A stretch of 64,000 nucleotides of DNA from the NCBI GenBank assembly GCA_951406725.2, contig OX597815.1, positions 151,094,001 through 151,158,000 on the forward strand, read 5' to 3'. The translations under genes and the position numbers were made by a program. The number at the start of each line of letters is the position of its first letter. Position 1 is the first letter of the stretch. Source of the stretch: Octopus vulgaris (Eukaryota). Under the pieces are notes generated by a model. That model ran no database searches, was not told the origin of the DNA, and saw nothing but the letters and a program-made list of their open reading frames with translations. Below are positions 2,882 to 27,960 of the stretch, one piece after another.

Positions 2882-4408
2882 GATTGATTGATTGATTGAT
2901 TCCAGTTTCAGCTCATGAGCTGTGGCCATGCTGGGGCACCGCCATTTGGTGTTGCTACTTGGTTTCACTTCATGGAGGCTTTCTAGCAACTGCTATTTGG
3001 TGCATGAGAGAGTTCGATGCAGCTGCCCTCATCTGCCCCTCCTGCCGTGAAGTTGGTTCATCTGGGACACCTGACAGGAAGAGATCCAGCTTCATTTTAA
3101 AGACATCTGTATCCACCCCATGCAGGTCTCTCAGGTTCTTCGGGAGGATATTGAAGAGCTGTGGGCCTCGGAAGCCCAGGCTATCACAGAATCTTGTCCT
3201 ACATCTTGATGGCAGGTTTGGAGTCCTTGGCACCACGCAGTGGCGCCCAGTTCTGGCATTTGCGTAACTCTCGATGCCAAAGTTCAGGACACTTCCCTCC
3301 AGGATCTTCCAGATGTATATTATGGCATATCTTTCCCGCCTACGCTCCAGAGAATATAATTTTAATCTCTTGAGTCTTTCCCAGTAGCTTACATTCTGCA
3401 TAGAGGCTATCTTCTTTGTGTAGCTTCGTTGGATCGCCTCAAGTTCTGTGATCAACTTGACACTGGATGGTGACCATAGCTGAGAGCAATAGTCAAAGTG
3501 GCTTAGGACAAGTGTCTTCCAGAGGACCATCATGGTTTTTTGTTCTCTTGTTCTAAAGGTTCTAAGAATCCATCCAGCCAGCCGTCTACATTTCATTGCC
3601 AGTTTAGCAACATGTACATGAAAGGTCGCGTCATCACTCATGTGAATACCCAGGTCACGCACTGATTGTGCCTCTGGGATTGCAATCCCTCCGGGTCCAG
3701 TGTATTCATTGGGTATTGCATTCAGTTTTGCATGCTGATAGTATAAAGCTTGAAACTTTCCAGCATTGAACTGCATGCTATTCTTTTCAGCCCACTTGTA
3801 TATTTCGTCTAGCTCACATTGCAGGTGTTTAGTGTCCTCAGGGTTCTGTATTGCCTGTGAAACTTTTGTATCATCTGCATAACTTGTGATCGTGCCTCTC
3901 TGCATGGCTGAGGGCATGTCTGAGAGGGCCATTATGAACAGTAGTGGTCCCAGAACAGTGCCCTGCGGAACACCGCTCACTATTTGTGTGTTAATGGAGG
4001 TGGCCCCATTGGCTACTACCACCTGACTTCTATCCTTCAGAAAGTCATGAAGCCATTTTCCCAGTTTTCCAACTATGTTGAGATCACGCAGTTTGTGACA
4101 TATCATTCCATGATCGACTTTATCAAAGGCCTTTGCAAAGTCGAGATATATCACTTCCACATTTGAGTGGTTGAGCAGCCGTTTCAGCACCCAGTCATAG
4201 TGTTGTAGGAGCTGAGTTAAACAGCTTCTCCCTGGTCGGAAACCATGTTGGGTGTCGGGCAGCAAGTCATTTTCTTCAAGGAAGGTGATCAGCTTCCTTC
4301 TGACTATTCGGTCCATGACCTTGCTGATGTGTGAGGTCAGAGAGATAGGTCTATAGTTCTTGGCTTCCGCTCTGCTACCTCCTTTATGAATGGGGCATAT
4401 TTTACCTT

Positions 4409-4410
<2 letters not shown>
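2882..4410 (-). mobile_element. 5'-truncated CR1-group LINE, copy A (RT + C-terminus + 3'UTR, (TCAA)n tail)
   Basis: Open frame 2970-4410 with [46 protein letters not shown] and SLERRRERY; tail abuts the TA array. Confidence 0.95.
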
Positions 4411-5268: not shown

Positions 5269-5371
5269 CGGAGTAAACACATAAATGTGAAACAAGGTGG
5301 AAAAAAGAGTACTCAAATACCAGTGGTAGAGTAATATGCTTTATTTTAAGCAGCAGAAAATTCAACAAAAT

Positions 5372-5409
5372 CTGTTACTCTGAGTTTCTCGTTGCCGTTC
5401 ATCAGACAG
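5372..5409 (-). ncRNA. Minimal hammerhead ribozyme motif (left arm)
   Basis: CTGT-CTGATGA-ACGGCAACGA-GAAA-CTCAGAG-TA-ACAG on the minus strand. Confidence 0.75.
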
Positions 5410-7320
5410 TTTTTGCTAGAATGGAACATATATATTAATTCAATCTATACTCTTACAAACGCTACACCTTTAAAAAGAAATGGACTTGTTTGATTGGCCC
5501 TTTAGAAAAAACGGTCAATCTTCGAGCGATAAACAAAAAGGTCAAAAATATATGTATATATATATAAAAACTTATAAAATTATAAAATCCGAGGAAAATA
5601 CCGAGGAAAAAACCTGTTGCCGTTAATGAAGACAGTACAAATTAATGCATAGAAATTAAACCTGTTATAAATACTGCAATACATATTTATATTAAAATCC
5701 ACATATATATATCAACATACACAAAAGGATGCGCGTAAACGCCATACATACATATACAGACGTATGAATATGAATCTAAATTATACACATAAAAGCATGT
5801 GTACATATATTCACGCAAACCGTCTCGCACGCAAGCTAAAATTCATCTATGTAGCAATTCTCATATACTGAGCAAGGAGGGGGAACGAAAGAAAGGGAAA
5901 GAGAGAAAAAGGAACGGAGGAGGGGTGGGGAAAAAACTTGTAGCGATGTTATTTGGCATCTATAGAGGCCAGTATACATACACAAGTTTGAATTGATACA
6001 TATACATACCGTCGTGTATATGTGTGCTTAAGCACAAGCATACTCTCACTTACACATACACAGATACGCATGCTTACAAATACATATGCTTTGCTATACA
6101 CAAACTTATATAAACATTCTAAATTTGACAACATTGCTTTTTTTATAAAAAAACATTGCTTTTAAAAAATGGGTGCATTAATAAAAATATATACGAAAGA
6201 CCTATAAAATAAAATATAACATCCTATTTTGGGTCATTTATAAATAATCAAGGTAATATAAATAATCAAGGTAATCTTATGCAATACAATAACATGAAAA
6301 CAAAGTTTGTAGGTTTTTCCTAATATATATGTAGAAACAATAAGACTTTGACTCTTGAGCGCTACAACGGACCTATAGCAAAGTCTTATTGTTTCTACAT
6401 ATATATTAGGAAAAACCTGCAAACTTTGTTTTCATGTTATTGTATTGCATAAGATTACCTTGATTATTTATATTACCTTGATTATTTATAAATGACCCAA
6501 AATAGGATGTTATATTTTATTTTATAGGTCTTTCGTATATATTTTTATTAATGCACCCATTTTTTAAAAGCAATGTTTTTTTATAAAAAAAGCAATGTTG
6601 TCAAATTTAGAATGTTTATATAAGTTTGTGTATAGCAAAGCATATGTATTTGTAAGCATGCGTATCTGTGTATGTGTAAGTGAGAGTATGCTTGTGCTTA
6701 AGCACACATATACACGACGGTATGTATATGTATCAATTCAAACTTGTGTATGTATACTGGCCTCTATAGATGCCAAATAACATCGCTACAAGTTTTTTCC
6801 CCACCCCTCCTCCGTTCCTTTTTCTCTCTTTCCCTTTCTTTCGTTCCCCCTCCTTGCTCAGTATATGAGAATTGCTACATAGATGAATTTTAGCTTGCGT
6901 GCGAGACGGTTTGCGTGAATATATGTACACATGCTTTTATGTGTATAATTTAGATTCATATTCATACGTCTGTATATGTATGTATGGCGTTTACGCGCAT
7001 CCTTTTGTGTATGTTGATATATATATGTGGATTTTAATATAAATATGTATTGCAGTATTTATAACAGGTTTAATTTCTATGCATTAATTTGTACTGTCTT
7101 CATTAACGGCAACAGGTTTTTTCCTCGGTATTTTCCTCGGATTTTATAATTTTTATAAGTTTTTATATATATATACATATATTTTTGACCTTTTTGTTTA
7201 TCGCTCGAAGATTGACCGTTTTTTCTAAAGGGCCAATCAAACAAGTCCATTTCTTTTTAAAGGTGTAGCGTTTGTAAGAGTATAGATTGAATTAATATAT
7301 ATGTTCCATTCTAGCAAAAA

Positions 7321-7358
7321 CTGTCTGATGAACGGCAACGAGAAACTCAGAGTAACAG
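7321..7358 (+). ncRNA. Minimal hammerhead ribozyme motif (right arm)
   Basis: Stem I CTGT/ACAG; CTGATGA; short stem II CG-GCAA-CG; GAAA; palindromic stem III CTC-A-GAG; GUA site. Confidence 0.75.
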
Positions 7359-7391
7359 ATTTTGTTGAATTTTCTGCTGCTTAAAATAAAG

Positions 7392-7398
7392 TATATAC

Positions 7399-7768: not shown

Positions 7769-9463
7769 GATTGATTGATTGATTGATTGATTGATTCCAG
7801 TTCCAGCCTATGAGCTGTGGCCATGCTGGGGCACCGCCATTTGGTGTTGCTACTTGGTTTTACTTCATGGGGGCTTTCTAGCAACTGCTATTTGGTGCAT
7901 GAGAGAGTTCGATGCAGCTGCCCTCATCTGCCCCTCCTGCCGTGAAGTTGGTTCATCTGGGACACCTGACAGGAAGAGATCCAGCTTCATTTTAAAGACA
8001 TCTGTATCCACCCCATGCAGGTCTCTCAGGTTCTTCGGGAGGATATTGAAGAGCTGTGGGCCTCGGAAGCCCAGGCTATCACAGAATCTTGTCCTACATC
8101 TTGATGGCAGGTTTGGAGTCCTAGGCACCACGCAGTGGCGCCCAGTTCTGGCATTTGTGTAACTCTCGATGCCAAAGTTCAGGACACTTCCCTCCAGGAT
8201 CTTCCAGATGTATATTATGGCATATCTTTCCCGCCTACGCTCCAGGGAGTATAATTTTAATCTCTTGAGTCTTTCCCAGTAGCTTACATTCTGCATAGAG
8301 GCTATCTTCTTTGTGTAGCTTCGTTGGATCGCCTCAAGTTCTGTGATCAACTTGACACTGGATGGTGACCATAGCTGAGAGCAATAGTCAAAGTGGCCCA
8401 GGACAAGTGTCTTCCAGAGGACCATCATGGTTTCTTGTTCTCTTGTTCTAAAGGTTCTAAGAATCCAGCCAGCCAGCCGTCTACATTTCACTGTCAGTTT
8501 AGCAACATGTACATGAAAGGTCGCGTCATCACTCATGTGAATACCCAGGTCACGCACTGATTGTGCCTCTGGGATTGCAATCCCTCCGGGTCCAGTGTAT
8601 TCATTGGGTATTGCATTCAGTTTTGCATGCTGATAGTATAAAGCTTGAAACTTTCCAGCATTGAACTGCATGCTATTCTTTTCAGCCCACTTGTATATTT
8701 CGTCCAGCTCACATTGCAGGTTTTTAGTGTCCTCAGGGTTCTGTATTGCCTGTGAAACTTTTGTATCATCTGCATAACTTGTGATCGTGGATCTCTGCGT
8801 GGCTGAGGGCATGTCTGAGAGGGCCATTATGAACAGTAGTGGTCCCAAAACAGTGCCCTGTGGAACACCACTCATTATTTGCGTGTTAATGGAAGTGGCC
8901 CCATTGGCTACTACCACCTGACTTCTATTCTTCAGAAAGTCGTGAAGCCATTCTCCTAGTTTTCCAACTATGCCAAGATCACGCAGCCTGTGACATATCA
9001 TTCCGTGATCGACTTTATCGAAGGCCTTTGCGAAGTCGAGATATATGACTTCCACATTTGAGTGGTTGAGCAGTTGTTTCAGCACCCAGTCATAGTGCTG
9101 CAGGAGCTGAGTTAAGCAGCTTCTTCCTGGTCGGAAACCATGTTGGGTGTCAGGCAGCAAGTCATTTTCTTCAAGGAAGGTGATTAGTTTCCTTCTGACT
9201 ATTCGTTCCATGACCTTGCTGATGTGTGAGGTCAGAGAGATAGGTCTGTAGTTCTTTGCCTCCGCTCTGCTACCTCCTTTATGAATAGGGCATATTTTAC
9301 CTTCCTTCAGTCCCCTTGGAAGTTTGCCAGCTGCAAGGAAGCTCTGAAAGAGGGACTGCAGTGGTCTTGCTAAGACTCTCTTACATACTTTTAGGAGGAT
9401 TGCCGGGAATCCATCGGGGCCAGTAGCTGAGTCTATTTTCATTTCATCTATAGCCTTTATTAC
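7769..9463 (-). mobile_element. 5'-truncated CR1-group LINE, copy B (same family as copy A)
   Basis: Open frame 7865-9463 from [18 protein letters not shown] through the RT motifs to ARKPP*; (TCAA)n tail; about 15 amino-acid differences from copy A. Confidence 0.95.
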
Positions 9464-12827
<3,364 letters not shown>

Positions 12828-13020
12828 GTTTTTATATCATTGGTGTGTTTTAGCGTGTGTAAGATTTTCGAAGATACAAAGAGAAAGCTGTTAGAAAATT
12901 AAAAAAACCAGTTTGTGTTGATAAAGATACAGTAGCATTCTGGTTTTAGTTTCTTAAGTAGTATTTGAGTTGGTAAAATAAATTTCATAAATCATTGTCA
13001 GTTACTACCAAAAAACCTTC

Positions 13021-14524
13021 TGTCCCAGTCTGTTGTCCCAGTTTTCAAAAAGGGAAACAAGTCCCTTGCAGTGAATTACCGTCCGATCTCACTCACCTCT
13101 CATATCATCAAGGTATTTGAGAGGGTGGTGAGATCTCAAATAACCCAATTTCTGGAAAGCAACAGACGGCTGATCTCCAACCAACATGGGTTCCGTAATG
13201 GAAGGGACTGCCTAACGCAGCTCCTGCATCACTTTGAGGACATTTTGAGAGCTTTGGGAGAGGGCTCCAACACCGATGTCATCTACCTTGATTTCAGTAA
13301 GGCCTTCGACAGGGTCGATCACAAGATCCTATTGAAAAAACTATCCAACATTGGTGTCTCTGGAAAGTTACTGAAATGGATTAAGTGTTTCCTGACAGAC
13401 AGATCTCAACATGTTGTAGTTGAAGGGTTAAAATCAAGCCCAGCCAAAGTCAGTAGTGGCGTTCCGCAAGGCACTGTGCTGGGCCCACTTCTTTTCATCA
13501 TTTTCATCATTTACATTAATGACATTAATGACATCATCAAGCACAGCAACATAAAAATCTTTGCAGATGACTCCAAGCTACAGAAGGTCATAAATGAGGC
13601 GAGTGACCGGACATGCCTTCAGTCAGATCTACTGGCTGTTATCCAATGGGCAGAAAAAAACAATATGCTGCTGAACGAGGATAAATTTGAGCTAATCCAC
13701 TTTGGAAAAGAGGATGCCCTGAAACTCCCATACTCCCTTCCTTCAGGTGAAACTCTCGCGGCGTCCAACAACATCAGAGACTTGGGAGTAATTGTGGACA
13801 ACAACGTAAGCTGGGCCACTCATATAAACACCAAAGTTGACATGGCCCGCAGAATGTGTTCCTGGATTCTCAGAACTTTCCAGTCGAGAGATATCCACAC
13901 CATTATCCTTCTCTTCTCCACTTTTGCCCGACCCCACCTTGAATACTGTTGTCCACTGTGGTCTCCCCACACAATACAAGGTATCAAAAAAGTCGAAGCA
14001 CCTCAAAGGGCAATCACAAAAAAGATAGATGGCATGACAGGCCTCGACTATTGGGGTCGACTAGAAAAGCTAAAACTCTATTCTCTCCAACGTCGTCGTG
14101 AGCGCTACATCATCTGCATGATGTGGAAAATATTCCATCAGCATTGCCCAAATGATGTTGGCATCACCTTTAAGGTACATCCAAGGCTTGGGCCCCGTGC
14201 CATCCGCCCAAAACAAAAATCGCACTCTCATCTCATAACAACAATACGGCACAATTATTTCACCTCAATTGGCCCCGCTCTCTTTAACATTACACCAAAA
14301 CACATTAAAACAGAAACTGACCCTATAGGGTTCAAGAAGTCTTTGGACAGATTCCTTCAAGAAATCCCGGATAAACCCCCTACACCCGGATATGCCTCTG
14401 TAAACAATAACTCTCTACTTGAGTGGGCCATAGTGCCCAAATTCTGAGACTTGAAAGACTTCACCAGGTGGTGCTATTAAGTTAGACATGGCCTGGGCCA
14501 ATAATGGCCGAAACCTATCAAAGT
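13021..14524 (+). mobile_element. 5'-truncated CR1-group LINE, second family (copy C)
   Basis: ORF 13071-14447 with [35 protein letters not shown] and SLQRRRERY; in-frame 9 bp duplication (FIIFII); short 3'UTR ending at a TA array. Confidence 0.93.
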
Positions 14525-15064: not shown

Positions 15065-15958
<894 letters not shown>

Positions 15959-16619
15959 CAAGATGGCGCTGAACTAACAACAAGTGTGTTAACGTGTCTC
16001 CTCCTAAATATTAAAGAAGTCCTTCCAGAGATCGATGTTATCAGAAGCGAAATTGTCTGCAAAGCGAATATAAGTGATAGTACAACAAGTCACTGTATTT
16101 GAGAAGAATATTTTCGCTTTTGATGTAGTATTTGCAACTAGAACATACTCGCGTGTTAAAACGCACGTGTGTTACTTCCCGAAATCGAAGTGAATTTTAT
16201 TCTTCGTCTGTGAATCAACAAGACACAGTATTTTTGAGAAGGATATTTTCGTTTTGATGTATATCTGCGTGTCCTGAAAAAAGCCTCTGAAAAAATTTGC
16301 TGCTTAATACCAAATCGCTTAGGAAAATATAGAAAGTATCGTGAAACTGTTGCATGTGCTAAATCGAAACTCAAACCCCTTTTGTTTACAAAGTGCGCTT
16401 GGGGAGGAATATAAAAGGTCTGTCTTGTCTATCTATCTTCCTTTCTTATAAAAAGGAATCACGTAAGTACTCTCTGTCAGCCGGTAAGGTAAGATATTAT
16501 TTATCTTGTTATCATTAGTGTTCTTTCAAACAGAAAATAATTAAAAAAAAATAAAAAAAAAAAAGATATAAAGATATAAAAATACGCGGTATTCTATCTT
16601 TATAATCTTTATAATTTCG

Positions 16620-17345
16620 TCCTCCGTGCCTGCCATGCACTCTCTCATTCTCTTTCTTACCATTCCTCAACTTCACTCATTCTCTCTTGTATCTATATAC
16701 CGCCCTCTTTCTCTCTCTCTCTCTCTCTGTTACTCCCCCTCCCTCTCTCTGCCTCTTTCCTCTCCGCTCCTTCACAGGTCAAACCCCTTTTCCTCTTCCC
16801 CTTCTGTCCCCTTATTTCTTTCTCTACACCACCCTCCCTGTCCCTTTACTACACTCTGTTGCGCCCCCTCTCTTCCTCTTCCCCCCTTTTTCCTTCCTAC
16901 CTTTCCTCTCCCTGTTCCCTCTAAGGCTCACCACCCCCCTGTCTCTTTTTTCCTCTCTCTGTCTCCTTCCTCCACACCACCCTCTCTGTCCCTTTACTTC
17001 ACTCCCTGGTACCTCTATCCTGCCCTCTCTCTCTCTCCCTCTCCATTTCATCTCTCTCTTCCTCTCCATTTTATCTCTCCGCCTTTCTTCTCCCTGCCCC
17101 CCCTAGGGTCCACCCTCTTGTCTCACTTTTCCACCCTGTCCCTTTCTACTACACCTCTATCCCGCTCACTCTCCCCTGCTGACCTGCCATTCTCTCACCT
17201 TTCTCTTTTTTCCCTCTTATTTTCTCTCTTTCTCTCTTCTCTCAGGAAAATCCCCTCGTCTCTCTCTCTATCCCCCCTGGCTTTTCTCCTTTCTCTTCTC
17301 CCTCTCCATATCTCTCCTTCTCTATCTCTCTCTCTGTTCCTATAT
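16620..17345 (+). repeat. ~720 bp polypyrimidine tract in the LINE 5'UTR
   Basis: Plus strand is strongly C/T-biased. Confidence 0.9.
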
Positions 17346-17359
17346 TTCACTAGAAGAAA

Positions 17360-18255
17360 ATGGCAAGAAACTGGTCTGCGAGAGAGGTGCAATTGTTCGT
17401 CCGCGCTTGGAAGATCGCTGAGGACGACTCGCCAAACGAAATTATTGCTGCGGCGCTGAAAAGCAACAATTTTTCGAGAACCACCGCCCAGATAGAGCGA
17501 AAGAAGAGAGAAGTTATCCGTTCGTACGCTCTAATCAGGCAACATGTGGACACCCTGGACATCATCCTGGGAGGTGACGGCAGCAGGGAGGGCCAAAAGG
17601 ATGAGGAAAGCATCCAGAGCCAAATGGAGAAGCCTGGAACACAGGGAAACGATGACACATGTCCAGCTTCCAACACCACAACTGAAGACCAAAGAGGTGC
17701 GATGGCCGCAAGAAAGGAAAGGCACCCTGGAATTGATGGGAAGCAGGAGGTAAAGGGTGACAGAATCAAGGCTAAAGGAAGCCCTGTCCAGAGAAAGCAG
17801 AGGGACCCCAGCAAAAACTGTAAGGGCAGGGAAAGAAACACCTGCAAATTCTACCTGAGGGGGACTGCTGGTACGGCGTTGAAGGTGCAAACTGTCGCTT
17901 TGCACATCGGAGGCCCTACCAAAACCGCACGGACGCGAGACAGAGGTCCCTCCCTCAGGGAGAACAAAAACAAAAAGTTAAAAGAAGGGAAAAAAGCGCA
18001 CTGACCACTACTGAAAGACGGTATGCAGATGTGGTGCGCGGAAACCCAACAGGTGGCCAGCTTCACCCAGATGTGAGAAGGGCGGCAGCTGAACAGCAGT
18101 CTTTTTTGTGCATGGCACAAAAAATTGTTCAGCAGCTGACCTGGCTACAAGCACAAAGCTGGAACTACCACCACATAAGGCCACCTCCAACAGATGCAGG
18201 ATGGCCACCACAGACACCAACACCAACACACACACCACAAAAATATTTCTACTGA
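17360..18255 (+). CDS. LINE ORF1: Myb/SANT-like N-terminus + CCCH zinc finger (1-nt frameshift at G-run 17859-17863)
   Basis: Track ORFs 17360-18004 and 18031-18255 join into 298 aa if one G is added. The joined frame reads CKFYLRGDCWYGVEGANCRFAH and later RYADVV. Confidence 0.75.
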
Positions 18256-21212
18256 ATGTAGGAGGGCTGCTGCGCGGAAACTGTAAAAAGAAAATTTCAT
18301 TCCTGAGAGACCTTGTGACATGCAATCAAGCTATATGCATGGCACTCACAGAAACGCATCTTGAACCCGATATAGGTGATGCAGAAATACACATGCCGCA
18401 ATATGCAGTCATACGCACAGATAGAAAAGGGAGGAGCCATGGTGGAGTTGCAATGTACATCCGAGATGACCTCACGCCCCAGGTCCTGCTGTCATATTCA
18501 AACTCAGTATGTGAAACTCAAATTGTACACATAAGACAACTGAATATCGTCATATGCACTACATATCGCCCACCAGACGCCCCAAAACACTCAGGCATGT
18601 TTGAAGACTGCCTAACAAAAATAGGAGAAGTCCTCACCAACCTTGAACAGCACAACAGTGTATTCTTCATGGGTGACTTTAACCTCCCCAATGTGGAATG
18701 GCCTGGGGGGCAGATGCTCCCAGGGATGACACACCATCAGCAGGCACAGGTGGAGTCCCTGCTCCATCTCACAAATACCTCTTTCATGGAGCAAATAGTT
18801 CTGCAACCAACAAGGGCAGATAATATACTGGATCTCTGCTTTACAAACAATATGGATATTATCCATAATGTTAATGTGATGCCGACAATGATCTCGGATC
18901 ACAACATAATAGAGCTGTCTACGTATGGAACAAAAGCCCCCGCAGACACACAGCCTATACGAAGCACCCACCATCTCTCCAACTTAAACTTTCATAAAGC
19001 CAACTGGAAGTCGATTGAGAAAGAGATCCTCAAACAGGATTGGCCTGAATGTCTCTCCACACCGGACATAAACATGAAACACAAACACTTCATGTCCATA
19101 ATACAAGCCATATGTGACAAATATGTCCCAATGTGCAGGGCCAGCACACACAAGAATAGAAACAGGATCCCTAGAGAAAGGAGGATTCTTATGAGACGAC
19201 GGACAAGGATTGCAAACCGCCTGAGCAAGCACACCAAAAGTGGTGAGAAGTCTCGGCTCGAAAGAATGCTAATGGAAACTGAGAAAAGTCTACATCAGTC
19301 CCATGAAAAGGAGAGAGCAGATAAAGAAGCTTGGGTAATAGAAAATATAAAATCAAACCCTAAAGCTTTCTTTAAGTTTGCCAAAGAGACAGCCACAGTG
19401 CACCAGAGAATAGGACCTCTCTTCCAAAAAGATGGCTCTCTCACAGGAAATCCCACGAGGATAAGTGAAATACTGAACGAACAGTTCCAAAGTGTATTCA
19501 CTACACCTCTAGGACACAGGCAAGTAAACAACCCAGAAGAATTCTTTGCCACTTTACCAGCGGCCAAAGAGACAAAAATTGAGTACATCAACATCGAAGA
19601 AGATGATATCACACTAGCCATTGATGAGATTGACACAAACTCAGCTGCTGGACCTGATGGATTCCCAGCGATCCTTCTCAAATCGTGCAAACGAGCCCTT
19701 GCAAAACCGCTACAGCTTCTTTTTCAGAGCTTTCTTGCAAGTGGTAAGCTCCCAGTCAAACTGAAAGAGGGGGTAATATGCCCTATCCATAAGGGAGGTA
19801 GCAGAGCAGATGCTAAAAATTATAGGCCTATCTCTCTGACCTCACACATCAGCAAAGTCATGGAACGAATAGTCCGTAAGAAACTAATCATGTTCCTTGA
19901 AGAAAATGACTTACTGTCTGACACCCAGCATGGATTTCGACCAGGTAGAGGCTGCCTAACACAGCTCCTGCAACACTATGACTGGGTGTTGAAACAGCTA
20001 CTAAATGGCTCAAATGTGGATGTAATATATCTTGACTTTGCAAAAGCCTTTGATAAAGTCGACCATGGTATGATCTGTCACAAACTGCGTGGTCTCGGCA
20101 TAGGCGGGAAACTTGGAGAGTGGCTGCACAACTTCCTAAAAGACAGAAAACAGGCAGTTGTGAGCAATGGAGCCACCTCCAGGGAAACGCAAATAACAAG
20201 CGGTGTCCCACAGGGCACTGTCTTGGGGCCACTGATGTTCATAGTGGCCCTTTCAGACATGCCTTCAGTTGCTACGATGACCACCCTTGCTAGCTATGCA
20301 GATGACACAAAGGTCTCCCACGCAATACAGAACCCTGAAAATATTGCGCATCTGCAACATGAGCTGGACACAATATACAGGTGGGCTGAGGACAACAACA
20401 TGCAGTTTAATGCAGGTAAGTTCCAGGCCCTGCGCTACTGGCACACAAAGGTAAATGACGTGAAGACTGGATACACTGGCCCAGGAAGAATTGCAATCCC
20501 TGAGTCAAAATCAGTGCGTGACCTGGGCATTGACATGAGCAATGATGCATCTTTCCAAATGCATATTGCTAATCTGGTGATAAAATGCAGACGGCTAGCT
20601 GGATGGATTCTCCGAACTTTCAGAACAAGAGAGAAGGAGACACTGATGGTCCTATGGAAAACATTTGTCCTCAGCCGCTTGGACTACTGCTCCCAACTTT
20701 GGTCACCACACAATATAAAACAAACAGCAGAACTCGAAGCAACTCAGAGAAGCTACACAAAGAAAATCGTCTCAATGCAAAATGTCAGCTACTGGGAAAG
20801 ACTGAAGGTATTAAACCTCTTCTCCCTGGAGCGGAGGCGGGAGAGATATGCAGTAATATACATCTGGAAAATCCTGGAGGGTCTTGTCCCAAACTTTGGC
20901 ATTCAAAGTTACTCCAACCGCAGAACGGGGCGCCGCTGCGTGGTGCCAAGGATTCCAACATCACCATCAAAATACAGGTCCAGATACTGCAACAGCTTGG
21001 GTTTCAGAGGACCACAGCTTTTCAACATCCTCCCTAAATGCCTGAGAGACTTACATGGTGTGGATGTGGGTTTCTTTAAAACTAAACTGGATCTCTTCTT
21101 GTTGGGAGTCCCAGATGAACCTACCTCACGACAGGAGACACGGATGCGGGCAGCAGCATCGAACTCCCTTGTTGATCAAGTGCCACGTATCAGAGGTGGA
21201 TTCACAAACTAG
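18108..21212 (+). CDS. LINE ORF2: AP endonuclease + reverse transcriptase, intact frame
   Basis: LNVGGL, LTETHL, GGVAMY, YRPP, GDFN, LDL and SDH (APE); [18 protein letters not shown] and YADD (RT). 1034 codons without a stop; likely ATG at 18201 overlapping the ORF1 end. Confidence 0.96.
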   Translation: MHGTKNCSAADLATSTKLELPPHKATSNRCRMATTDTNTNTHTTKIFLLNVGGLLRGNCKKKISFLRDLVTCNQAICMALTETHLEPDIGDAEIHMPQYAVIRTDRKGRSHGGVAMYIRDDLTPQVLLSYSNSVCETQIVHIRQLNIVICTTYRPPDAPKHSGMFEDCLTKIGEVLTNLEQHNSVFFMGDFNLPNVEWPGGQMLPGMTHHQQAQVESLLHLTNTSFMEQIVLQPTRADNILDLCFTNNMDIIHNVNVMPTMISDHNIIELSTYGTKAPADTQPIRSTHHLSNLNFHKANWKSIEKEILKQDWPECLSTPDINMKHKHFMSIIQAICDKYVPMCRASTHKNRNRIPRERRILMRRRTRIANRLSKHTKSGEKSRLERMLMETEKSLHQSHEKERADKEAWVIENIKSNPKAFFKFAKETATVHQRIGPLFQKDGSLTGNPTRISEILNEQFQSVFTTPLGHRQVNNPEEFFATLPAAKETKIEYINIEEDDITLAIDEIDTNSAAGPDGFPAILLKSCKRALAKPLQLLFQSFLASGKLPVKLKEGVICPIHKGGSRADAKNYRPISLTSHISKVMERIVRKKLIMFLEENDLLSDTQHGFRPGRGCLTQLLQHYDWVLKQLLNGSNVDVIYLDFAKAFDKVDHGMICHKLRGLGIGGKLGEWLHNFLKDRKQAVVSNGATSRETQITSGVPQGTVLGPLMFIVALSDMPSVATMTTLASYADDTKVSHAIQNPENIAHLQHELDTIYRWAEDNNMQFNAGKFQALRYWHTKVNDVKTGYTGPGRIAIPESKSVRDLGIDMSNDASFQMHIANLVIKCRRLAGWILRTFRTREKETLMVLWKTFVLSRLDYCSQLWSPHNIKQTAELEATQRSYTKKIVSMQNVSYWERLKVLNLFSLERRRERYAVIYIWKILEGLVPNFGIQSYSNRRTGRRCVVPRIPTSPSKYRSRYCNSLGFRGPQLFNILPKCLRDLHGVDVGFFKTKLDLFLLGVPDEPTSRQETRMRAAASNSLVDQVPRIRGGFTN

Positions 21213-21287
21213 TGTGGCTCATTCAGCGGTGGTGCCCCAGCATGGCCGCGGCCTTCGGGCTAAAACATTTTTAAGGATTTAAGGATT

Positions 21288-21506
<219 letters not shown>

Positions 21507-23021: not shown

Positions 23022-23660
23022 AAGGCGGCGAGCTGGCAGAAACATAAGCACGCCAGGCAAAATGCTTAGCATATTTCGTCTGCCGTTACGTTCTGAGTTC
23101 AAAATCCGTCGAGGTTGACTTTGCCTTTCATCCATTCGGGGTCAATTAAAGACGTACCAGTTACGCACTAGGGTCGATATAATCGACTTAATCCGTTTGT
23201 CCGTCCTTGTTTGTCCTCTCTGTGTTTACCCCCCTGTGGGTAGTAAAGAAATAGGTATTTCGTCTGTCTTTACGTTCTGAGTTCAAATCGCACGGAGGTC
23301 GACTTTGCCTTTCATCCTTTCGGGATTGATGAATTAAGTACCAGTTGCATACTGGAATTGATCTAATCGACTGGCTCCCTCCCCCAAAATTTCGGTCCTT
23401 GTGCTTAGAACAGAAAAGAATATGTATGTGATTGTTCAGTTTTATTTCAACTAGCAGAACCCACGTTAGCATGCCGGGCGAAATGCTTAGCAGTATTTCG
23501 TCTGTCTTTACGTTCTGAGTTCGAATCCCGCTGAGGTCGACTTTGCCTTTCATCCTTTCGCGGTCAATAAATTAAGTACCAGTTGCGTAGTGGGATCGAT
23601 CTAATCGACTGGCCTCTTCCTCCAAAATTTCGGTCCTTGTGCCTAGAGTAGAAAAGAATA
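23022..23660 (+). mobile_element. Three tandem SINE family B copies
   Basis: Repeated GTTCTGAGTTCAAAT..GAGGTCGACTTTGCCTTTCATCCTTTCGGGGTC..AAGTACCAGTT block. Confidence 0.85.
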
Positions 23661-26769: not shown

Positions 26770-27160
26770 TTTATTTTCTTTTACTTGTTTCAGTCATCTG
26801 ACTGCGGCCATGCTGGAGCACCACCTTTAGTCAAACAAATCGACCCCAGGACTTATTCTTTGTAAACCTAGTACTTATTCTATCAGTCTCTTTTGCCGAA
26901 CTGCTAAGTTACGGTGATGTAAACACACCAGCATCGGTTGTCAAGCGATGTTGGGAAACAAACACAGATACATAACATATACACATACATATATATATAC
27001 ATACATATATATGACAGGCTTCTTTCAGTTTCCGTCTACCAAATCCACTCACAAGGCTTTGGTTGGCCCAAGGCTTTGCCCAAGGTGCCACGCAGTGGGA
27101 CTGAACTTGGAACCATGTGGTTGGAAAGCAAGCTACTTACCACACAGCCACTCCTGCACC
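26770..27160 (-). mobile_element. SINE family A, full length
   Basis: tRNA-like head GGAGTGGCTGTGTGGTAAG..GTTCAGTCCC, internal (TA/TG) spacer, tail GGTGCTCCAGCATGGCCGCAGTC. Confidence 0.88.
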
Positions 27161-27164
27161 TACA

Positions 27165-27960
27165 ATTTATTGCAATTGTTTTCAAATTTGGTATATAGAT
27201 TAAGTTTTGTATACTAATTATGGAAATAAAATTCAGTTTTCTATAAGTCCATAATTAAAAAGTTATTAGCTTTTAAAATTTGCAAATTTTGGGTATTTTA
27301 GCCAATCAGAAGCGAGTATTTTACACATTATTGTGGCGCAAAGCTGTTTCCATAGTAATAAAAGATGCTGCGCATGTGCACAAGGAGGAGAAGGAGATAT
27401 GAGAAAGATAGTCTTCTTACTAGTATAATACTCTTCTGTTTTTCTTTGTCACGACATATGAATGAGAAAGGAAGGGGTGATAGATGAATAAGGAAGGAAG
27501 GGGTGATGGTAGTGGGAGCTTTTCAACTCTGTGTGAGAATGTGTGTGTATGTAAAAGGGAGGGATGTGAATGTTTGTGTGTGTGTGTGTGTGTATGTGTG
27601 TGTGCAACAGAAGTGAGATGGTGAACATTCAACGCTGAAGAGAAAAAATCAAACAGTGTTTCAACTCCGTTTGAGAATATGTGTATGTGTGTGTGTGTGT
27701 ATGTGCATGAACAAGGGAAGGAGCAATGTTTTAACATACTGATGCCCCCTGTCCCCACCCCTGATGATGGGAGAGGCAGCGAATGTGCTGTTTGCTGATT
27801 AGCTGAAAATTCTAAAAAATTATCATCCTTTGAATACCTGTAACATTTTTTGAATACCTGTAACATTTTTTGCAAAATTTTCTGGAGTAAATCAATAACA
27901 AATTCGGATTCAGCATCAAAACTTACATCTATATGATACATTAGAAATTCTTTTTAAAGA
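27165..27960. mobile_element. Possible MITE/DNA-transposon remnant
   Basis: Sub-terminal inverted segments (TTTTAGCCAATCAG vs CTGATTAGCTGAAA); the internal part recurs inverted at 30688-30825. Confidence 0.4.

What the first reader, a model, noticed from the sequence alone, without database searches (positions are those of the whole stretch)
17360..18255. Unusual ORF1: trihelix/Myb-SANT-like domain plus cryptic CCCH finger
Seen: the N-terminus RNWSAREVQLFVRAW..IAAALKSNNFSRTTAQIERKKREVIRSY fits the W-x3-E..W..IA..L..RT..Q..K..Y spacing of Myb/SANT-like (MADF/trihelix) domains. Adding one G to the G5 run gives C-x7-C-x8-C-x3-H and extends the frame to overlap ORF2. Known: CR1-group ORF1s usually carry PHD, RRM or esterase modules, while Myb domains aid targeting in R2. 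Inference: a little-described ORF1 type whose DNA-binding domain might contribute to TA targeting.
Basis: partly seen in the sequence, partly recalled or inferred. Interest (0 to 1): 0.75.

Follow-up and report, generated by a model that had tools for sequence, protein, structure and literature searches.

The report
Octopus retrotransposon with Myb-plus-zinc-finger ORF1
This octopus CR1-type retrotransposon sits in a TA microsatellite, and its first gene (frameshifted in this copy) pairs a Myb-like DNA-binding domain with an RNA-binding-type zinc finger, an unusual layout whose role in choosing TA sites is untested.

Summary
Window 17360-18255 is ORF1 of an apparently full-length Octopus CR1 LINE (about 15959-21288) whose APE-RT ORF2 is unbroken. 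A published mollusc LINE tree labels this RT family CR1. ORF1 lacks one base near 17859-17866. Four of 30 related proteins carry the N-terminal domain and the full C-x7-C-x8-C-x3-H finger in one frame, so the finger is real. An alignment-based AlphaFold model (pLDDT 85) has three helices. Its nearest folds are Myb/SANT/TEA/trihelix domains (Z about 7, a middling score). Seven of 23 relatives hit Pfam Myb_DNA-bind_4, and one passes the curated cut-off. All four CR1 copies in the window abut TA arrays. I found no published LINE ORF1 with this layout, but Repbase and Dfam were not searchable. Most likely the finger binds the element's RNA, the Myb domain tethers the particle to DNA, and the endonuclease picks TA sites. 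Direct TA reading by the Myb domain is untested (about 0.2). Verdict: new variant of a known kind, interest 0.5.

The parts
15208..15958 (.). TA (ending TA/TG-mixed) microsatellite at the inferred 5' junction
   Evidence: TRF array 15208-15912; the alternating TG/TA tail runs to 15958
15959..17359 (+). Inferred 5' UTR. It starts with CAAGATGGCG (YY1-like, label recalled) and has an 85% pyrimidine tract at 16600-17330 with splice-like signals
   Evidence: the 5' end is inferred from one copy only
17360..17584 (+). ORF1 Myb/SANT (trihelix-like) domain, helices 7-19, 25-35 and 42-75, with a conserved extension of helix 3
   Evidence: Pfam PF13837 E=1.8e-4, below the cut-off; AlphaFold pLDDT 85; fold search; 36-49% identity to intact relatives
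17585..17842 (+). Variable, charged linker, presumably disordered
   Evidence: 10-16 of 88 positions identical to intact relatives
17843..17907 (+). CCCH zinc finger C-x7-C-x8-C-x3-H, interrupted by a one-base frameshift at about 17859-17866
   Evidence: the family profile hits Muscleblind CCCH fingers in PDB at E=1.2e-4 to 6e-3
18022..18144 (+). Conserved C-terminal block YADVV...EQQSFLCMAQKIVQQLTW, a probable amphipathic helix (helix inferred, not modelled)
   Evidence: 16-26 of 41 positions identical in 3 intact relatives
18201..21212 (+). ORF2, 1003 aa, APE endonuclease plus reverse transcriptase, no stops; overlaps the ORF1 end by 55 nt
   Evidence: Pfam RVT_1 1e-29, Exo_endo_phos_2 1e-10; CR1 label
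21213..21288 (+). 3' UTR with two adjacent hairpins and a short (TAAGGATT)2-like tail
21287..21387 (.). (TA)50 array at the 3' junction
7797..9463 (-). 5'-truncated sister-family CR1 (copy B), 78% nt identity, (ATCA)n tail, TA arrays on both sides
2882..4410 (-). 5'-truncated CR1 (copy C), 96.5% identical to B with a different truncation point, TA arrays on both sides
12828..14523 (+). 5'-truncated distant CR1 (copy D), 43% ORF2 identity, TA arrays on both sides

Best explanation
This is a young, apparently full-length Octopus CR1 LINE inserted in a TA microsatellite. Its ORF1 belongs to a real protein family laid out as Myb/SANT (trihelix-like) domain, variable linker, one CCCH finger, and a conserved C-terminal helix. 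The frameshift is a lesion of this copy or an assembly slip, not a family feature. SHOWN: the layout, the fold class, single-frame relatives, the CR1 label and the TA flanks. INFERRED: the bicistronic RNA is translated; many ORF1p molecules coat it through the CCCH finger and basic linker and assemble through the C-terminal helix. The Myb domain, with a basic conserved helix 3, acts as a general DNA or chromatin tether or import helper, in the slot where related CR1s carry a PHD. The ORF2 APE endonuclease nicks the AT-rich target and primes reverse transcription from the 3' hairpins and tail, and it supplies most of the TA preference.
For: Single-frame relatives: 4 of 30. Conservation is confined to the domains: N-domain 25-34 of 70 positions, C-terminal part of the finger 8-10 of 16, linker 10-16 of 88. 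The AlphaFold model from 23 sequences has pLDDT 85 and pTM 0.67. The top structural matches among 48,161 chains are RAD MYB (Z 7.3, rmsd 2.5, 58 aligned), DNAJC2 SANT (7.3), TEAD4 (7.2) and the GT-1 trihelix domain (6.8), and most of the 50 rows are Myb/SANT/homeodomain-type. Pfam Myb_DNA-bind_4 is hit by 7 of 23 members, and P0030 passes the cut-off with 29.3 against 27 bits. R40, Q44, K48, K49 and Y56 are kept in 20-22 of 23. The profile hits Muscleblind CCCH fingers, which are RNA binders (recalled). The visible RT stretch of O.sinensis_14_LINE matches the window ORF2 letter for letter by eye and is labelled Jockey/CR1 with 183 members. L002 is the RT sister of this family in my tree (90/81, inside a 100/99 clade). 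Its ORF1 has a PHD-like Cys pattern and three Cys/His fingers instead, consistent with the module exchange described for CR1 ORF1s (PMC4120745). ORF1p RNA binding and import roles are summarised in PMC3894237, and the endonuclease as main targeting factor in PMC3812793.
Against: The window protein itself scores below the Pfam cut-off (22.3 against 27 bits). Foldseek gave no match with E<=0.001, and Z about 7 on a small helical domain is middling by the tool's own note. The usual Trp of trihelix helix 3 (consensus recalled) is Lys at the aligned position in 20 of 23 rows. No binding of RNA or DNA was tested. The four intact relatives have no genomic context or organism, so their link to an ORF2 is assumed. 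The finger similarity between this family and L002 is not significant (hhalign E=0.17; L002 was not among the 12 top rows seen), L002's PHD-like region has no Pfam hit, and it is a single locus, so the direction of any swap is unknown.
Confidence: 0.6

Rival explanations
1. The ORF1 Myb domain reads (TA)n directly and docks the particle on TA microsatellites, where the endonuclease then cuts.
For: All 4 CR1 copies in the window abut TA arrays, the 3 truncated ones on both sides, whereas none of 37 alignment segments from two other dispersed repeats reached a TA-step fraction of 0.7 at either end. Helix 3 is basic and conserved. The nearest folds include sequence-specific DNA binders such as GT-1, Zeste, TRF1 and Tbf1.
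Against: There are no binding data. TA arrays make up 9% of this window and a random interval has both ends TA-rich 2-3% of the time; B and D share one array, so the four copies are not independent. A review passage credits the endonuclease with the major role. Copy D (43% identity, ORF1 unknown) is also in TA.
Confidence: 0.2
2. The Myb domain binds the element itself (its 5' UTR promoter DNA or its RNA) or escorts ORF2p to the nucleus, as the Myb-like protein of PIF/Harbinger transposons does for its transposase.
For: The Harbinger ORF1 Myb-like protein binds element ends and is needed for nuclear localisation of the transposase (PMC2836001 passages). An atypical Myb with two nucleic-acid-binding surfaces (Cdc5) is among the fold matches. 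The inferred 5' UTR is long, 1.4 kb.
Against: There is no test of binding, and no sequence link to Harbinger proteins was shown. The 29 phmmer hits form one compact family.
Confidence: 0.12
3. The three helices are a generic helical bundle or oligomerisation module, not a Myb/SANT domain.
For: The window protein is below the Pfam cut-off, Foldseek gave no significant match, and 16 of 23 members miss PF13837 at E<=0.1.
Against: Sequence and structure evidence converge on one fold class, and one family member passes the curated cut-off.
Confidence: 0.05
4. The break is a programmed -1 frameshift or slippage site that yields a short and a long ORF1p.
For: The break lies at a G run, and P0001 (O. 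vulgaris) also leaves the frame shortly before the finger.
Against: Four relatives read through in one frame, and P0001 breaks at a different place.
Confidence: 0.03

Closest known systems
Octopus CR1 families in Martelossi et al. 2023 (PMC10294476; O.sinensis_14_LINE, _104, _46; O.bimaculoides_1_LINE)
   Same: Same RT: the visible stretch of _14 matches the full-length copy and that of _46 matches copy D, by eye; all are labelled Jockey/CR1.
   Different: That study classifies by RT only; 'ORF1' occurs once in its main text, and I saw no description of ORF1 domains or TA flanks.
CR1/L2/Jockey ORF1 types I-V (Metcalfe and Casane 2014, PMC4120745)
   Same: Two-ORF layout with a modular ORF1, often an N-terminal chromatin-type module (PHD) plus an RNA-binding module.
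   Different: Its table of 448 elements lists only PHD, RRM, CCHC, Tnp22, coiled coil, zf/lz and esterase; 'myb', 'sant' and 'ccch' occur 0 times in the main text. This ORF1 would fall in type V, unclassified.
Trihelix / Myb-SANT-like domains (Pfam PF13837; GT-1 2jmw, Zeste 5cqq, RAD MYB 2cjj)
   Same: Three-helix fold with a long third helix and the W...W...L...RT..Q...K pattern.
   Different: Short helix 1-2 loop, the helix-3 Trp usually replaced by Lys, and encoded by a LINE ORF1.
PIF/Harbinger ORF1 Myb-like protein (PMC2836001)
   Same: A separate Myb-like partner protein beside the catalytic protein of a mobile element.
   Different: DNA transposon with a DDE transposase; it binds terminal repeats; no CCCH finger was mentioned in the passages read.
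Microsatellite-targeting LINEs Waldo, Mino, Kibi, Koshi, Dong (PMC3812793)
   Same: LINEs found inserted in simple repeats.
   Different: The listed targets are ACAY, AC, TC, TTC and TAA; no TA-targeting CR1 is in that list, and targeting is credited to the endonuclease.
Muscleblind-type CCCH zinc fingers (PDB 2e5s, 5u6l, 3d2q)
   Same: C...G.C..G...CRFAHP signature.
   Different: A single finger with C-x7-C-x8-C-x3-H spacing, two residues longer between the second and third Cys than in the aligned Muscleblind finger, and not in tandem.

Membership tests
CR1 clade LINE | ORF2 with N-terminal APE endonuclease and RT | tested here: met
   Pfam Exo_endo_phos_2 1e-10 and RVT_1 1e-29
CR1 clade LINE | RT phylogeny places it in CR1 | tested here: met
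   By proxy: the visible stretch of O.sinensis_14_LINE matches by eye and is labelled CR1 in the published tree. My own tree had no named references.
CR1 clade LINE | 3' UTR stem-loop and short-repeat tail instead of poly(A) (feature recalled) | tested here: inconclusive
   Tails are short repeats and two hairpins recur in 3 of 3 ends folded, but z-scores are only -0.9, -1.1 and -2.3
Myb/SANT-like domain PF13837 (trihelix) | Profile score above the curated cut-off | tested here: inconclusive
   Window protein 22.3 bits, below 27; relative P0030 29.3 bits, above; 7 of 23 members hit at E<=0.1
Myb/SANT-like domain PF13837 (trihelix) | Three-helix bundle with helix-turn-helix and long third helix | tested here: met
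   Model pLDDT 85; top matches Myb/SANT/TEA/GT-1 at Z 6.8-7.3; a prediction, with middling Z
Myb/SANT-like domain PF13837 (trihelix) | Sequence-specific DNA binding | not testable with these tools
   Needs EMSA or SELEX
CCCH zinc finger | Three Cys and one His conserved in spacing across relatives | tested here: met
   4 of 30 relatives have C-x7-C-x8-C-x3-H in frame; the profile hits Muscleblind fingers; Pfam CCCH scores are all below cut-off
CCCH zinc finger | Zinc and single-stranded RNA binding | not testable with these tools
   Needs biochemistry
ORF1 types I-IV (RRM+CCHC, Tnp22, PHD, esterase) | RRM, CCHC knuckle, Tnp22, PHD or esterase domain | tested here: not met
   No such Pfam hit in the window pieces (E<=10) or in the intact relatives (E<=1), and conserved sequence is limited to three short blocks. 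Divergent RRMs usually need HHpred, which was not available.
Proto2 / RTE-group LINE (considered from memory) | RT placed in the RTE superfamily | tested here: not met
   Matching RTs are labelled Jockey/CR1
Target-specific LINE | Most genomic copies inserted at one target sequence with defined junctions | tested here: inconclusive
   4 of 4 copies in one 64 kb window abut TA; not independent; target-site duplications cannot be read inside a microsatellite

The most novel reading that the evidence does not exclude
Octopus CR1 elements carry a captured trihelix/Myb domain in ORF1p, in place of the PHD of related elements, that reads (TA)n directly. ORF1p would then bridge the element's RNA (through the CCCH finger) to a microsatellite safe harbour, making ORF1 a sequence-specific targeting factor in an APE-type LINE and helping to shape the TA-rich octopus genome.
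Probability: 0.2. Interest if true: 0.8.

Novelty: new variant of a known kind. Interest (0 to 1): 0.5.

Why it matters
LINE ORF1 proteins are built from exchangeable modules, and why such different modules can do the job is an open question. A Myb/SANT plus CCCH version adds a type missing from the surveys I could read. It belongs to a large family: 183 RT-bearing members in O. sinensis for the matching cluster, and CR1 is among the recently active LINEs of O. vulgaris, with 13 families and 787 insertions. It separates a probable DNA-binding module from a probable RNA-binding module on a 300-residue protein, so the question of whether ORF1p helps choose insertion sites becomes directly testable. 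If the Myb domain reads TA, that would be a targeting route separate from the endonuclease. If it does not, this remains a useful annotation of an ordinary active CR1.

Tried and rejected
Single-sequence AlphaFold gave pLDDT 55 and uninformative fold searches. phmmer of residues 1-67 against PDB gave 0 hits at E<=10, and the family profile found no Myb chain in PDB by sequence. The C-terminal frame alone found nothing among 13 candidates. The profile search returned only 2 already known members among 8000 candidates scored, so the family was not extended. The Atlas gave only sub-0.9 leads for the N-domain, several of them Myb families, and nothing for P0027. The homodimer prediction for residues 1-75 returned no verdict (score 0.01, alignment not used). 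Cluster membership and organisms of the relatives could not be looked up. My recalled idea that this was a Proto2 element was rejected. A finger profile from 4 relatives did not pick out L002 among 1969 translated segments (12 top rows seen, best E=0.41). RT tree: 32 of 39 candidate rows were used; 7 loci covering under 180 residues were dropped. Literature searches for a precedent: non-LTR+ORF1+CCCH 9 papers, none on this topic by title or abstract start; +Myb-like+CR1 0; LINE/ORF1p/SANT/trihelix 83, the 20 listed all on L1 or human TEs; non-LTR+ORF1+Myb+SANT 1, irrelevant; TA repeats+non-LTR+insertion+endonuclease 0; octopus-specific searches 3 and 10 papers. The alignments in the supplements of PMC4120745 are images (for file 2; file 3 gave no hits), so its sequences could not be compared. 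Unchecked: octopus genomic sister copies and raw reads (no such collection), viral and metagenome contigs (closed), Repbase and Dfam entries, subscription reviews and bioRxiv supplements; any of these could already describe this ORF1.

Full report
Observation. The frame from ATG 17360 begins with the quoted peptide and stops after 214 residues. The G5 run is at 17859-17863. The first Cys of the finger is in this frame and the remainder in the -1 frame, which stays open to 18255. One additional base gives 298 codons. ORF2 has its first in-frame ATG at 18201, runs 1003 codons without a stop, overlaps ORF1 by 55 nt, and carries APE and RT domains.

Origin and clade. The seven named relatives of the N-terminal half are all Octopus vulgaris or O. 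sinensis predicted proteins. In the RT alignment supplied with PMC10294476, the visible stretch of O.sinensis_14_LINE matches window ORF2 letter for letter by eye, and that of O.sinensis_46_LINE matches copy D (30 of 47 motif places seen). Its Table S7 labels these Jockey superfamily, CR1 clade, with 183 and 52 members. My recalled guess of Proto2 is therefore rejected.

Is the finger real? phmmer over 1.84 billion representatives returned 29 hits; with one more, 30 relatives were held. Four (P0018, P0026, P0027, P0029; 262-371 aa) have the N-domain and C-x7-C-x8-C-x3-H in one frame, P0011 has a degenerate finger, and 25 end or diverge earlier, many looking like decayed or mis-spliced predictions. 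Against the four intact proteins, identity is 25-34 of 70 positions in the N-domain, 8-10 of 16 in the C-terminal part of the finger and 10-16 of 88 in the linker. A C-terminal block (YAD[AV]V...FLx[MV]AQ...LxW) is kept in three of the four. This pattern fits selection on three modules. The residue between Gly and the second Cys varies (T, T, E, K), so the missing base cannot be pinned to the G run. These four proteins have no organism or genomic context in my outputs, so their attachment to an ORF2 is assumed. The family profile matches Muscleblind CCCH fingers in PDB (E 1.2e-4 to 6e-3). Pfam CCCH models score below their cut-offs.

Is the N-domain Myb-like? The window protein hits only PF13837 (E 1.8e-4, 22.3 bits, cut-off 27). 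Seven of 23 aligned relatives hit it, and P0030 passes the cut-off. AlphaFold with those 23 sequences gives pLDDT 85 and helices 7-19, 25-35 and 42-75. The wide structure search ranks RAD MYB (Z 7.3, rmsd 2.5, 58 aligned), DNAJC2 SANT (7.3), TEAD4 (7.2) and GT-1 trihelix (6.8) first, with most of the 50 rows in this fold class. Against this, Foldseek had no match at E<=0.001, Z near 7 is middling, and the usual helix-3 Trp (recalled consensus) is Lys in 20 of 23 rows. I put the fold assignment near 0.9 and the sub-family as trihelix-like but divergent.

Element anatomy and TA context. The element probably starts at 15959 (CAAGATGGCG, right after a TA/TG array; inferred from this one copy) and ends near 21288 before (TA)50. 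Three more CR1 copies lie in the window, all 5'-truncated. B and C are 78% identical to this element and 96.5% to each other, with different truncation points; D has 43% ORF2 identity. All three have TA arrays on both sides. TA arrays are 9% of the window, a random interval has TA-rich 40-mers at both ends 2-3% of the time, and none of 37 alignment segments from two other dispersed repeats reached the 0.7 TA-step threshold at either end. The 5' flank of the full copy scores only 0.41 on that measure because it is TG-mixed, and the 3' windows I scored for B and C (0.41, 0.59) included their tails. B and D share one array. TA preference is therefore likely, but it rests on four non-independent copies.

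Wider family. A scan of prokaryotic genome records returned 35 loci, most of which look like host-derived LINE contigs (inference). In an RT tree of 32 rows, L001, L002 and the four window copies form one clade (100/99), with L002 sister to this family (90/81). L002's ORF1 has a PHD-like Cys pattern (recalled; no Pfam hit) and three Cys/His fingers. Its first finger aligns to the octopus finger, but not significantly (E 0.17). This hints that the N-terminal module was exchanged while a finger was kept. It rests on one locus, and the direction is unknown.

Mechanism. By analogy with other LINE ORF1 proteins (PMC3894237 passages), ORF1p should coat the RNA and help it reach the nucleus. I infer RNA binding by the CCCH finger and basic linker, self-assembly by the C-terminal helix, and a general DNA or chromatin tether in the Myb domain, with the APE endonuclease providing most of the TA choice (PMC3812793 passage); confidence 0.6. 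Direct TA reading by the Myb domain gets 0.2, binding to the element itself or escorting ORF2p as in Harbinger (PMC2836001 passages) 0.12, a non-Myb bundle 0.05, and programmed frameshifting 0.03. None of the binding steps was shown.

Novelty and what I read. PMC4120745: passages, section 6 in full, and part 1 of 2 of supplement 1; no Myb, SANT or CCCH in the main text. PMC5203782 and PMC13343379: term searches and passages, 0 occurrences of those three terms. PMC13282606: first third of the text plus a term search, no ORF1 or Myb. PMC8967140: passages, no 'ORF'. PMC10294476: passages, two supplement files searched singly, and 12 of 33 in a first pass. PMC4640811 and PMC3520747: passages, not informative. 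The ten library searches gave no precedent. Repbase, Dfam, subscription reviews, figure-only supplements and bioRxiv supplements were not visible and may describe this ORF1. The role of Myb in R2 targeting is recalled only.

Verdict. A real, conserved and apparently undescribed ORF1 layout in an otherwise ordinary, abundant octopus CR1, broken by one base in this copy. New variant of a known kind; interest 0.5, or 0.8 if the Myb domain proves to read TA.

Noticed in passing
window 21225-21270; 7815-7850 (-); 14460-14515: The 3' UTRs of the three CR1 families each fold into two adjacent hairpins around a shared CATGGCC core followed by a GGCYRRAAC-like motif, with differing stem sequences. Individual z-scores are weak. 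This may be the RT recognition element.
   Followed up: partly
window 15959-17359: The inferred 1.4 kb 5' UTR starts with a YY1-like CAAGATGGCG (label recalled) and holds donor-like sites near 16464 and 16484 and an 85% pyrimidine tract with acceptor-like ends near 17246 and 17352. It may contain an intron, which would be odd for a LINE, or be a separate insertion.
   Followed up: partly
window 5334-7396: A near-perfect palindrome of about 2 kb (arm segments 99.5-100% identical, centre near 6365) between two TA arrays; a foldback or MITE-like element or an assembly artefact.
   Followed up: no
window 21386-21506: A 119 bp near-perfect hairpin (96%) directly after the TA array at the element's 3' end.
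   Followed up: no
window 2982-4409, 7877-9454, 12969-14447: All three truncated CR1 copies keep open ORF2 3' halves, which points to recent activity of at least three families with different tails.
   Followed up: partly
L002:2-1552: A 517 aa ORF1 with a PHD-like pattern and three Cys/His fingers and no Pfam hit, upstream of an ORF2 of the same RT subgroup; possibly another uncatalogued CR1 ORF1 type.
   Followed up: partly
L001-L035: Many prokaryotic genome records contain short contigs with CR1-like APE-RT LINEs, most likely host DNA binned into the assemblies.
   Followed up: no
window 26783-27166 and 23254-23660, with copies across 21-63 kb: Two abundant SINE-like dispersed repeat families (12 and 25 alignment segments); used only as controls for TA flanking.
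   Followed up: partly
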